Source: the human T2T-CHM13v2.0 reference genome, Homo sapiens. Taken from it: DNA of 64,000 bases. The stretch lies in NCBI RefSeq assembly GCF_009914755.1, contig NC_060929.1, one strand, 5' to 3'. The position numbers and the translations under genes are program-made. Of the stretch, positions 8,010-11,480 are shown one piece after another. The notes beneath the pieces are model-generated. The model worked only from the letters and a program-made list of their open reading frames with translations, searched no databases and was not told the origin of the DNA. Numbering within the stretch: the stretch's first letter is position 1; every line of letters starts with the position of its first letter.

Positions 8010-9535
8010 CTTTTTGTTTTTGAATTTTTTTATAATTTCTACTTTTATTTTAGATACAGGAGGTACATGTGTGAGTATGTTACATGGGTATATTGCATAA
8101 TGCTGAGGTTTGAGCTATGGAACCCATTACCCAGGTAGTCAGCATAGTACCCAATAGGTAATTTTTCAACCCATTCCCCCCTTTCTCCCTCCCTGTTCTC
8201 ATAGTCTGCAGGGTCTATTGTTCGCATCTTTATGTCTATGTATACTCAAAGTTTAGCTCCCACTTATAAGGGAGACCATGTAGTATTTGGTTTTCTGTTC
8301 CTGCATTAATTTGCTTAGGATTATGGCCTCCAGTTGGATCCATGTTATTGCAAAGGATATGACTTTTTTATGGCTGCATAGTATTCCATGGGATATATAC
8401 ACCAGAATTTCTTTATCCAACCCACCACTGATGGGCACCCAGGTTGATTCCATGTCTTTGCTTTTGTGGATAGTGCTGCAAGAAATATACAAGTGCGTTT
8501 GTCTTTTCAGTAGAATAATATTTTTTCCTTTGGGAATATACCCAGTAATGGGATCGATTGGTTGAATGGTAGTTTTAAGTTCTTTGAGAAATCTCCAAAC
8601 TGCTTTCCAGTGGCTGAAGTAATTTACATTTTCACCAACAGTGTGTAAGCATTCCTTTTTCTCTGTAGCCTTGCAAACATCTGTTATTTTTTGAATTTTT
8701 AATAATAGCTATTCTGACTGGTGTGTGGTGTTAGATTGTATCTCACTGTGGTTTTGGCCTTTGATTATTAGCGATGCTGAGTATTTTTTCATATGTTCAT
8801 TGGTTGTACATCTTCTTTTGAGAAGTATGTTTGTTCATGTCACTTGCCCAGATTTTAATGAGGTTGTTTTTTGCTTAAGTTCCTTATAGATTCTGGATAT
8901 TAAACCTTTGTTGGATGATAGTTTGCAAATATTTTCTCCCATTCAGTAGATTGTCTGTTTACTCTGTTGATAGTGTCTTGTGCTGTGCAGAAGCTCTTTA
9001 GTTTAATTAGGTCCTATTTGTTAATTTTTGTTTTTATTGCAATTGCTTTTGGTATCTTTGTCATGAAATCTATGCCAGGTCCTATGTCCAGAATGGCATT
9101 TCCTAGGTTATCTTTCAAAGTTTTTATAGCTATAGGTTTTACAAGTCTTTAATCCATCTTGAGTTGATTTTTTATAAGGTATAAAGAATGGGTCCAGTTT
9201 CAATTTTCTGCATATGGCTAGCCAGCTATCCCAGCACCATTTATTGAATAAGGGGAGTTCTTTGCCTGTCGCTTTTGTCAGCTTTGTCAAAGATCAGATG
9301 GTTGTAGGTGTGCAACTTTATTTCTGGATTCCCTCTTCTGTTCCATTGGTCTATGTGCCTGTGTTTGTACCATTACCATGCCATTTGGTTACTGTAGTCT
9401 TAAAGTATTGTTTGAAGTCAGGTAATGTGATGCCTCTAGCTTTGTTCTTTTTGCTTAGGATTGTTTTGACTATTTGGGCTTTTTTGATTCCATGTGAATT
9501 TAGAATAGTTTTTTTCAAATTCTGTGTAAAATTAT
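8010..9535 (-). mobile_element. L1 3' portion (older L1PA15/16- or L1PB-like): degenerate ORF2 C-terminus, 3'UTR and T-tract tail
   Basis: Minus-strand ORF fragments match L1 ORF2 ([60 protein letters not shown]). T-rich tail at ~8010-8050. Confidence 0.92.
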
Positions 9536-9536
9536 C

Positions 9537-9769
9537 TTTCATTTTCATTTTCTGATTACCTTAGATTACATAACCCATTCCTTCAACCCTTCTCTATATG
9601 TTGTCAGCATCTTTGTGTCCTTTTATCCACCCATCCATAAAAGAGCCAACACAGAATATCTGTTTTCAAAGCCTGTACCAGGCTGATGCGTTAATGCTGC
9701 CAGAGTAAAACTACATCTGTGGTGACTACTCTCAGTATGTCCTGTAAAATTGCCCAGCAACTTGGTTTT
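9537..9769 (+). repeat. Direct copy of 18979-19215 (L2-derived), sitting at the L1/ERV junction
   Basis: Manual alignment gives about 17 substitutions plus 2 indels over ~233 bp. Confidence 0.95.
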
Positions 9770-9770
9770 G

Positions 9771-11480
9771 TTTGTAACAAGTAATTCTGCTTGTTGGGAG
9801 GACATGCCCAAAGGCAAGGCAAGGGGGCAGCCTCTACAACTCTTCTAGGTGGGAGACAGTGGGTATCATCATGATATCCCTCAATGGCAGCATATCCTGC
9901 TTGTAAAGGAGGGATTTTTTTGATGCGCTGCCATCTATAAACCAATCTGGGGCTCCCTTTATGTGAGTGGAAGTAAGGTGGTGAAACATGGTGAGAGAAC
10001 TTTCAGTGAGATCAGTGTGAGTGTTGGTCGGAGTTCAAAATTGGTGTTGAAGGTAAAAGAGTGATGGGATTATGATGGGAGTATCTATGAGGAGAGATAG
10101 AGTGTTGAAGGAGAGTTGAATGCAGGGCTTGCGTGCAAGAGGATGAGGTGGAGGTGAGTGCCTTATGGCTGAGCATATCTTGTAGACTGTGAGAGGAAAA
10201 TACCTGAAGGGGTTCATAGAATGTGAGTTTTTGTGCCTCAGGGATAATTAGAGAGGTTGTGGCCAAAACTTTTAAGCAAAGGGGCCAGGTTTTGTAAATG
10301 GGATCTAGTTGGTTTGAAAAACATGCCACTGGTTGGAGGGAATCTCCCATGGGTTAGGCTAGTAGTCCAAGGGCCTGATTATAAGAAGTGTGTAAATATA
10401 CATAAAAAGGTCTTAGGGGATTTGGAAGGCCTAAAGTGGGGGCCTGTAATAAAGCATGTTTTAGGTGAGAGAAAGCATGATAAACATCTGGGGTGGGATT
10501 GAGTGGTTGGTCAATATTTCCTTGTGTGTGTTTATAAAGGAGTTTACTGATAATAGAAAAATTTGCTATCCATAAGCAGAAATATCCCACTTATCCAAGG
10601 AAAGAAAGTAAGTCCCTTTTTGTTTTAGGAATTGGGATTTGTTGAATGCCTTGCTTTCATGCAAGTGGAATTTCTTGAGTATTTCGAGTTATGATTAATC
10701 CTAGGTATAAAGCTTTTGGAGGTTAATTGGGCTTTTTTTTTTTTTTTTTTTTTTGGATAACTGGCACCCACATTCAGTGAAAAATTTTAAAAGCCTGGTG
10801 GTATGTTGAATACAACGTTTTAGAGTGGGGCTGCAAAGCAGTCAGTCATTCACATATTGAAGCAAAATGCTAGGTTGTAGAGGTAGATGGAAAAGGTCCA
10901 ACTGAAGTGCATGACCAAAATATTGAGGGCTGTCTCTGAACCCCTCGGGGAGGACAGTCCAGGTAAGTTGTTGGGAATAGCTTGTGCCAGGGTTGGTCCA
11001 AGTGAACCCAAAAGGTTTTGAGAGGAGGGATGTAGAGAGATAGTAAAAAAGGCACCTTTGAGGTCTAATACAGAGAAACAGCTAGTGTTGGAAAGAATTC
11101 ATGATAGGAGGATATAGGGGTTTTGGACAACAGGATAAACAGGAACCATAGCAGAGTTGATTTGTCGCAAATTCTGAACCAGTCTATAGGAGCCATCTGA
11201 TTTTTTAATTGGGAGAATAGGAGTATTGTGGGGAGAATGGGTGGGGATTAAAATATTGGCAGCTGGAAGTTGGGAGATGGGCTTGAGTCTCCATAATCCA
11301 TTAGAGTTGAGGGGAAATCATGGGACCACTATATAGTACTTAGGATCCTTCAGTGAAATTTGAATCTGAATGGCAGGTAGCTATTATGGGGGAGTCGGTG
11401 TTCCATACTACGGGATTTATATGGATGAGGAATTTGGAATTTAAGCCTGTTTGATGTGGAGTGTCTGAGGAGAGGCTCTG
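9771..11480 (-). pseudogene. pol: Degenerate ERV pol (RT, connection, start of RNase H)
   Basis: Fragments LKHALLQAPTLGLPN, PVACFSNQLDP, WPLCLKVLATT, WFIDGS (9927-9944) and SSQQAEL; frameshifts, stops and a long T-run at ~10733-10754. Confidence 0.88.

What the first reader, a model, noticed from the sequence alone, without database searches (positions are those of the whole stretch)
9530..9780. Deletion junction patched with a ~233-bp copy from 9.4 kb downstream
The L1 body stops abruptly at ~9535 and the ERV pol stops just after the RNase H SSQQAEL motif (~9771). Between them lies a direct copy (~91-92% identical by eye) of 18979-19215. The 19-kb copy is embedded in continuous L2-like sequence, so it is the donor. 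The ERV integrase, env and 3' LTR, the 5' part of the L1 and the left half of the MER63 that hosted the ERV are all missing. Inference: a multi-kb deletion repaired by template switching (FoSTeS/MMBIR/SDSA-type) and later fixed. An alternative is an L1-insertion-mediated deletion with filler DNA.
Basis: partly seen in the sequence, partly recalled or inferred. Interest (0 to 1): 0.7.

Follow-up and report, generated by a model that had tools for sequence, protein, structure and literature searches.

The report
Old deletion scar with copied patch
In a human lncRNA intron, a 236-base copy of DNA from 9.4 kb away sits between a cut-off LINE-1 and a cut-off retroviral relic, likely the scar of an old primate deletion repaired by copying nearby DNA, a well-described and ordinary kind of event.

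Summary
Window 9537-9772 is a direct copy of 18979-19218 (90.8% identity, 18 mismatches in 236), and a genome search finds only these two copies. The L1 on its left stops at 9532 and the class I provirus on its right stops inside RNase H at 9778, while related copies run on. At least 3.8-4.1 kb of provirus and the left part of its host transposon are missing and were not found elsewhere. Divergences give the order L1, provirus, patch, which argues against L1-insertion-mediated deletion. The patch probably predates the ape radiation. Best reading: one break, a deletion of 3.9 kb or more, repaired by copying a template 9.2 kb away. Fragment capture and a two-step duplication plus deletion remain open. 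The 'L2-like' donor context was not confirmed, the junctions show no clear microhomology, and no primate outgroup was available. This is the known class of repair-mediated duplication / 'Ins with Dup and Del'; similar local duplicates are common (2 more in this window, 2 in 253 kb of control loci).

The parts
8030..9532 (-). Old L1 fragment (3' end with T-rich tail at the left). Similarity to other L1 copies ends at about 9532. No right-hand target-site duplication found. Subfamily looks like L1PA13-L1PB (recalled, from no call).
   Evidence: longest match of the left flank to 9520-9600 is 6 nt, AT-rich
9533..9536 (.). Left junction: 4 nt that fit neither side without gaps; a blunt join with later small indels or a short insert; no clear microhomology
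9537..9772 (+). The patch: 236-bp direct copy of 18979-19218
9773..9777 (.). Right junction: about 5 nt that fit neither side without gaps; no clear microhomology
9778..13865 (-). Decayed class I provirus interior: Gag_p30, zinc knuckle, reverse transcriptase, connection domain, broken off inside RNase H; many stops and frameshifts. Primer site at about 13846-13863 resembles tRNA-Phe (recalled), which points to the HERV-H/F supergroup (not tested against a named family).
13866..14313 (-). 5' LTR of the provirus; no sister LTR found (best other copy 85%)
14314..14450 (.).
18979..19218 (+). Inferred donor, 9,201 bp from the right break; no other genomic relatives found for it or its flanks

Best explanation
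A 236-bp direct copy of DNA lying 9.4 kb downstream joins a cut-off L1 to a cut-off provirus, and it is likely the scar of one germ-line repair event in which a broken end copied that nearby template and was then end-joined, losing at least 3.9 kb. Shown: the copy, its two-copy status, the cut neighbours, the absence of the lost proviral part elsewhere, and the lower divergence of the patch. Inferred order: L1 inserted; the provirus inserted into a short DNA transposon to its right; later a break or collapsed fork between them. One end primed on the 19-kb template (same chromatid or sister), made about 240 nt, let go and was joined to the other end (SDSA- or MMBIR-like switch, closed by end joining). 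The allele was then fixed, probably before apes and Old World monkeys split or near that time. No function is indicated.
For: Copy and uniqueness. Both neighbours end within 4-5 nt of the patch while their relatives continue. Three two-LTR relatives put 3,815-4,077 bp between the equivalent break and the far LTR end. Sequence from beyond the break occurs only beside other family copies already seen, none near chr5:126 Mb, and there is no sister LTR among 40 scored of 486 candidates. The host repeat's left part is absent from the window. Per-lineage divergence: patch 0.038+-0.010, provirus 0.066, L1 0.082 (medians of three-point estimates). Size, local donor and short junction filler match Pace 2009 (PMC2671141); deletion plus a local template within 10 kb matches Sudmant 2015 (PMC4617611).
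Against: No microhomology of 2 nt or more is clear at either junction, although template switching usually leaves some; 8% decay may have erased it. The donor lies beyond Pace's 5-kb cut-off and the deletion is far larger than the 1-15 nt in their Table 1. The ancestral allele was not seen, because no primate genome was available. A duplication followed by a deletion gives the same final sequence.
Confidence: 0.58

Rival explanations
1. Same single event, but the patch was a free double-stranded fragment ligated in by end joining and not copied in place, for example a SPO11 double-cut fragment from a nearby meiotic hotspot inserted into a deletion between two other cuts.
For: Blunt or near-blunt junctions. 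Mouse germ-line inserts of this kind are 15-967 bp with 0-2 nt microhomology, and such deletions span kilobases up to 30 kb (bioRxiv 10.1101/2020.06.23.168138 and 10.64898/2026.02.11.705388, passages). The patch is G/C where the donor is A/T at 11 of 14 non-CpG weak/strong mismatches (p=0.057), as biased gene conversion at a hotspot would leave.
Against: In those papers, ectopic inserts came from other chromosome positions, local inserts were inverted, and most events needed ATM or MRE11 loss; this patch is local and direct. The L1 side shows A/T excess in the window copy (G/C excess in 1 of 24 pairwise rows); the proviral side shows a weak, non-significant G/C excess (Fisher p=0.37 on one median row).
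Confidence: 0.2
2. Two steps: a 9.4-kb tandem duplication (9778-19218) made the right junction, and a later deletion from the L1 to near the end of the first unit left only its last 240 bp.
For: The order A-D-C-D-E is exactly what this would leave; the direct orientation and the position of the donor at the far end of the unit fit. Nothing here dates the two junctions apart.
Against: It needs two fixed events, and the deletion must end in the last 2.5% of the unit. Single-event versions are common: 501 'Ins with Dup and Del' among 1,651 complex deletions.
Confidence: 0.12
3. L1-insertion-mediated deletion: the L1 integrated here, its 5' end picked up local sequence, and the target site lost the end of the provirus.
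For: No right-hand target-site duplication. L1 insertions with extra non-L1 DNA of 4-312 bp and deletions up to 14.5 kb are described for the endonuclease-independent route (PMC1920257, passages). The patch sits at the L1's 5' end.
Against: The patch should be as old as the L1. The L1 is K=0.145-0.177 from its 24 nearest scored copies and the patch 0.081 from its donor; P(<=18 of 236) is 0.006-0.0005 for raw divergence 0.13-0.15. The L1 also looks older than the provirus it would have had to cut. Caveat: distances between copies overstate insertion age, and gene conversion could make the patch look younger.
Confidence: 0.07
4. The junction is an old inversion or translocation breakpoint, and the missing pieces lie elsewhere.
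For: Unrelated elements abut at the patch.
Against: No orphan integrase-side piece and no sister LTR were found. The searches score only the best candidates, and the DNA just outside the window could not be read directly.
Confidence: 0.03

Closest known systems
Repair-mediated duplications (RDs), Pace et al. 2009, PMC2671141
   Same: Two-copy, short (their mean 162 bp, max 619), same-chromosome donor, few junction filler bases, no poly(A), primate age; 7.6% divergence lies between their catarrhine and all-primate classes.
   Different: Donor 9.2 kb away (their proximal class is under 5 kb); deletion 3.9 kb or more (theirs 1-15 nt); different elements on the two sides, which their pipeline could not detect.
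'Ins with Dup and Del' complex deletions, Sudmant et al. 2015, PMC4617611
   Same: Kilobase deletion (their mean 3.1 kb) with an insert templated within 10 kb; 871 of 1,651 complex sites had a local template.
   Different: Those are present-day polymorphisms, typically with microhomology; this one is old, likely fixed, and its microhomology is unclear.
Ectopic insertion of SPO11 double-cut fragments into hotspot deletions (bioRxiv 10.1101/2020.06.23.168138; 10.64898/2026.02.11.705388)
   Same: Insert size, deletion size and near-blunt junctions are within the reported ranges.
   Different: Shown in mutant mice; local inserts there were inverted; no hotspot map exists for this ancestor.
L1-insertion-associated deletions (L1IMD, Han 2005, seen only as a reference; NCLI, PMC1920257)
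   Same: L1 next to extra DNA and a target-site loss, without a duplication of the target site.
   Different: The L1 here has a normal 3' tail and appears about twice as old as the patch.

Membership tests
Repair-mediated duplication (Pace 2009) | Insert of 50 bp or more found at only one other place in the genome | tested here: met
   236 bp; 2 of 2 candidates
Repair-mediated duplication (Pace 2009) | Not tandem (over 50 bp from the donor), no poly(A/T) tail, not a transposon | tested here: met
   offset 9,442; sequence read directly; no repeat relatives found
Repair-mediated duplication (Pace 2009) | Donor within 5 kb (their proximal class) | tested here: not met
   9,201 bp from the right break; it works like an RD but falls in their 'distant' bin
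Repair-mediated duplication (Pace 2009) | The same transposon resumes on both sides of the insert | tested here: not met
   L1 on the left, provirus on the right; a detection rule of that paper
Repair-mediated duplication (Pace 2009) | Junction filler, deletion or microhomology | tested here: met
   4-5 unassigned nt at each side and an inferred deletion; microhomology unclear
Ins with Dup and Del (Sudmant 2015) | Deletion relative to the ancestral allele | tested here: inconclusive
   Inferred from broken elements; the ancestral allele itself was not available
Ins with Dup and Del (Sudmant 2015) | Inserted sequence of 10 bp or more matching a template within 10 kb | tested here: met
Ins with Dup and Del (Sudmant 2015) | Microhomology between break ends and template boundaries (typical) | tested here: inconclusive
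   none clear in register; gapped alignments allow 0-1 nt
L1-insertion-mediated deletion | Deletion and filler arise with the L1 insertion (same age) | tested here: not met
   patch K 0.081 against L1 K 0.145-0.177
L1-insertion-mediated deletion | The pre-insertion allele lacks the L1 | not testable with these tools
   no primate relatives held (header)
SPO11 double-cut fragment insertion | Both breaks and the donor map to meiotic break hotspots | not testable with these tools
   ancestral hotspots unknown; G/C skew only suggestive
HERV-H/F supergroup (the provirus) | Sequence match to a named group (HERVFA, HERVFB, HERVH48, LTR46; PMC4724089) | not tested
   no repeat library at hand; gag/pol domains shown; primer-site likeness recalled

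The most novel reading that the evidence does not exclude
The junction is a fossil of meiotic double cutting in a primate ancestor: a deletion between two hotspot cuts with a fragment from a third nearby cut ligated in. The G/C excess of the copies over their donors (18:4 over the three local duplicates in this window) would then be the trace of biased gene conversion at old hotspots, or of error-prone repair synthesis, and such copy-donor pairs could serve genome-wide as markers of vanished hotspots.
Probability: 0.1. Interest if true: 0.55.

Novelty: new member of a known kind. Interest (0 to 1): 0.2.

Why it matters
As a single locus it matters little: an intronic, likely fixed repair scar with no sign of function (hub annotation: intron of a predicted lncRNA, no RefSeq functional element). 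It is a clean example of how a provirus can lose its 3' half without LTR recombination, and of a large deletion with a local patch that the 2009 genome-wide pipeline could not see. The one lead of wider use is the direction of the copy-donor mismatches, which can be tested on published RD lists with primate alignments.

Tried and rejected
1) Young multi-copy repeat: rejected, 2 of 2 candidates. 2) The two copies as LTRs of one provirus: rejected; the real LTR is 13866-14313, and other repeats lie between it and 19 kb. 3) L2 context of the donor: nothing found; not disproved, as very old L2 can escape these searches. 4) Short inverted repeat at the right junction as a fold-back sign: dropped, because part of it is native to the provirus copies and neither junction 12-13-mer recurs nearby. 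5) Cluster of three local duplicates as one complex event or a fragile site: not supported; 83 control loci (253,061 bp, each under 3.8 kb, chosen around repeats and so not random) held 2 non-Alu local duplicates, both confirmed as local pairs, P(>=2 short-range in 64 kb)=0.09. 6) G/C skew around the junction: absent on the L1 side, weak on the proviral side; the 18:4 total was noticed after looking and is not a planned test. 7) LTR dating: of 10 candidate pairs, 5 gave LTR-like direct pairs (K 0.060, 0.064, 0.083, 0.146, 0.169; one of them only weakly like the window's LTR), 3 matched through other repeats and 2 gave nothing; the spread is too wide to date this copy. 8) Locus in print: all 125 'chr5' places in Pace Table S1 were read; none has a same-chromosome donor about 9 kb away (coordinates were not lifted to hg18). 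A search on LOC124901056, LINC02240, 5q23.2 and endogenous retrovirus listed 6 papers (listing only), none evidently about this junction. Two papers asked for were not held, so L1 subfamily ages were not checked. The DNA flanking the window was not read, and earlier scan findings were not available.

Full report
Observation. A self-comparison of the window finds 9537-9772 as a direct copy of 18979-19218: 240 columns, 90.8% identity, 18 mismatches and one 4-nt gap, bit score 334. The best of 200 shuffled versions scored 38.3. Searching the whole assembly with the patch, and with the donor plus about 330-400 nt of flank on each side, returned only these two places (2 of 2 candidates); the tool skips very common words, so this shows low copy number, not a strict count. 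The hub's table places the window in an intron of a predicted lncRNA on human chr5 with no listed functional element.

Left neighbour. 8030-9532 is an L1 on the minus strand. Its best genomic matches are 81-83% over 8950-9532 and 78-81% at the 3' end. Aligned at the junction, none of 24 fetched copies matches the patch and most continue with the same L1 sequence. The flank left of the tail has no partner right of 9532 longer than a 6-nt AT-rich match, so no target-site duplication is visible. How much L1 was lost cannot be said, because 5' truncation at insertion is the rule (established knowledge).

Right neighbour. 9778-14313 is a decayed class I provirus on the minus strand: Gag_p30, zinc knuckle, RVT_1 and RT_RNaseH_2 are found, and no integrase family (12 frames scanned, 6 of them proviral). 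Similarity to 13 other copies starts at 9778 and drops to chance to the left of it. In three copies with the far LTR in place, 3,815, 3,908 and 4,077 bp lie between the equivalent point and that LTR's end. A search with sequence from beyond the break in one such copy hit only loci beside the family copies (plus Alu matches to one part of the query), none near chr5:126 Mb. The LTR's best other match is 85% (40 scored of 486), so no sister LTR was found. The repeat right of the LTR has many relatives; many of 14 fetched copies continue about 70-90 nt leftwards, and a profile from them hits the window only at 14314-14436. The names MER63, L1PA13-L1PB and a Phe primer site are recalled, not from a call; PMC4724089 (passages) lists the HERV-H/F groups, but I did not assign one.

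Which copy is the donor. The 9.5-kb copy has a broken element at each edge, so it is the derived one. Junctions: 4 nt on the left and about 5 nt on the right fit neither side in register; gapped alignment lets the patch run to both edges with small indels and 0-1 shared base.

Age and order. Patch against donor: K2P 0.081+-0.019; raw 7.6%, 95% interval 4.6-11.8%. Three-point branch medians: L1 0.082 (24 copies), provirus 0.066 (10 copies), patch 0.038; the first two include differences between source elements and so run high. If the patch were as old as the L1, 18 or fewer mismatches would have probability 0.006-0.0005; against the provirus (raw 0.10-0.12) 0.13-0.02. For calibration I used 35 of the 39 chr5-acceptor rows of the '<5 kb' sheet of Pace Table S1 (left out: 2 human, 1 human-chimp, 1 mammal): median divergence 4.7% for great-ape-shared (n=7), 6.0% for macaque-shared (n=12) and 9.0% for all-primate (n=16) events. 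At that paper's rate of 2.2e-9 the age is 18 Myr (10-27); at assumed slower rates of 1.1-1.5e-9, 27-37 Myr. The event is likely shared by apes and probably by Old World monkeys (inference).

Mechanism. The sequence reads A, jump forward to D, 240 nt, jump back to C. One repair event with a template 9,201 bp from the right break explains it (0.58). Capture of a free fragment by end joining gives the same product and fits the near-blunt ends (0.2). A tandem duplication followed by a deletion ending in the last 2.5% of the unit is possible but needs two events (0.12). L1-mediated deletion fails on age (0.07). Displacement by inversion found no support (0.03). Only primate orthologues can separate these, and none were held.

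Comparison with what is known. Pace 2009 (PMC2671141; abstract, parts 1-2 of the main text, passages, chr5 rows of Table S1) describes 824 proximal RDs with filler, small deletions and microhomology; this case differs in distance and deletion size and could not pass their same-element rule. Sudmant 2015 (PMC4617611, passages) counts 501 'Ins with Dup and Del' and 871 locally templated sites among 1,651 complex deletions, and this case fits that description. The two mouse preprints (passages; supplements not seen) give the SPO11 route; PMC1920257 (passages) the L1 route.

A side observation. At non-CpG weak/strong mismatches the patch carries G/C and the donor A/T in 11 of 14 (p=0.057); counting all sites, all 10 transitions run this way. 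Two further two-copy duplicates in the window give 4:0 and 3:1, total 18:4 (p=0.004, post hoc, and it assumes my choice of copy and donor is right). Against a hotspot reading: the adjoining L1 is A/T-shifted (G/C excess in 1 of 24 rows), and the proviral side, with G/C excess in 9 of 10 non-independent rows near the break and 0 of 10 further off, is not significant (p=0.37). Local duplicates are not rare: 2 in 253 kb of control loci.

Verdict. Interest 0.2.

Noticed in passing
window 25986-26154 and 25640-25809: Inverted local duplicate, 170 bp, 94% identical (K 0.055), 177 bp from its source; the right-hand copy is flanked by a direct repeat of about 11 nt, like a target-site duplication. No other match to this part among 40 scored of 98 candidates. 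Looks like a typical repair-mediated duplication.
   Followed up: partly
window 48874-48982 and 46948-47056: Inverted local duplicate, 109 bp, 93.6% identical (K 0.067), 1.8 kb apart; two copies genome-wide; the right-hand copy sits inside the AT-rich tail next to a short L1 3' end.
   Followed up: partly
window 9537-9772, 25986-26154, 48874-48982: In all three pairs the presumed copy is richer in G/C than the donor at mismatches, 18:4 outside CpG; unexplained, direction of change unknown.
   Followed up: partly
L011:136-349 and 1214-1427 (G000:C4:86532055-86533346): 214-bp direct local duplicate, 97% identical, of an old repeat (71-80% elsewhere), next to a proviral pol piece; may be a younger case of the same kind.
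   Followed up: partly
L077:1251-1424 and 2784-2957 (G000:C2:163086102-163087808): 174-bp inverted local duplicate, 90% identical, two copies genome-wide.
   Followed up: partly
window 33456-35219 and 51279-52694: Two long 65-68% similar stretches in direct orientation, probably two old copies of one interspersed repeat.
   Followed up: no
L055/L056, L059/L060, L061/L062, L073/L074: LTR pairs of this provirus family range from K 0.06 to 0.17, so the family was active over a long span or some pairs were converted.
   Followed up: no
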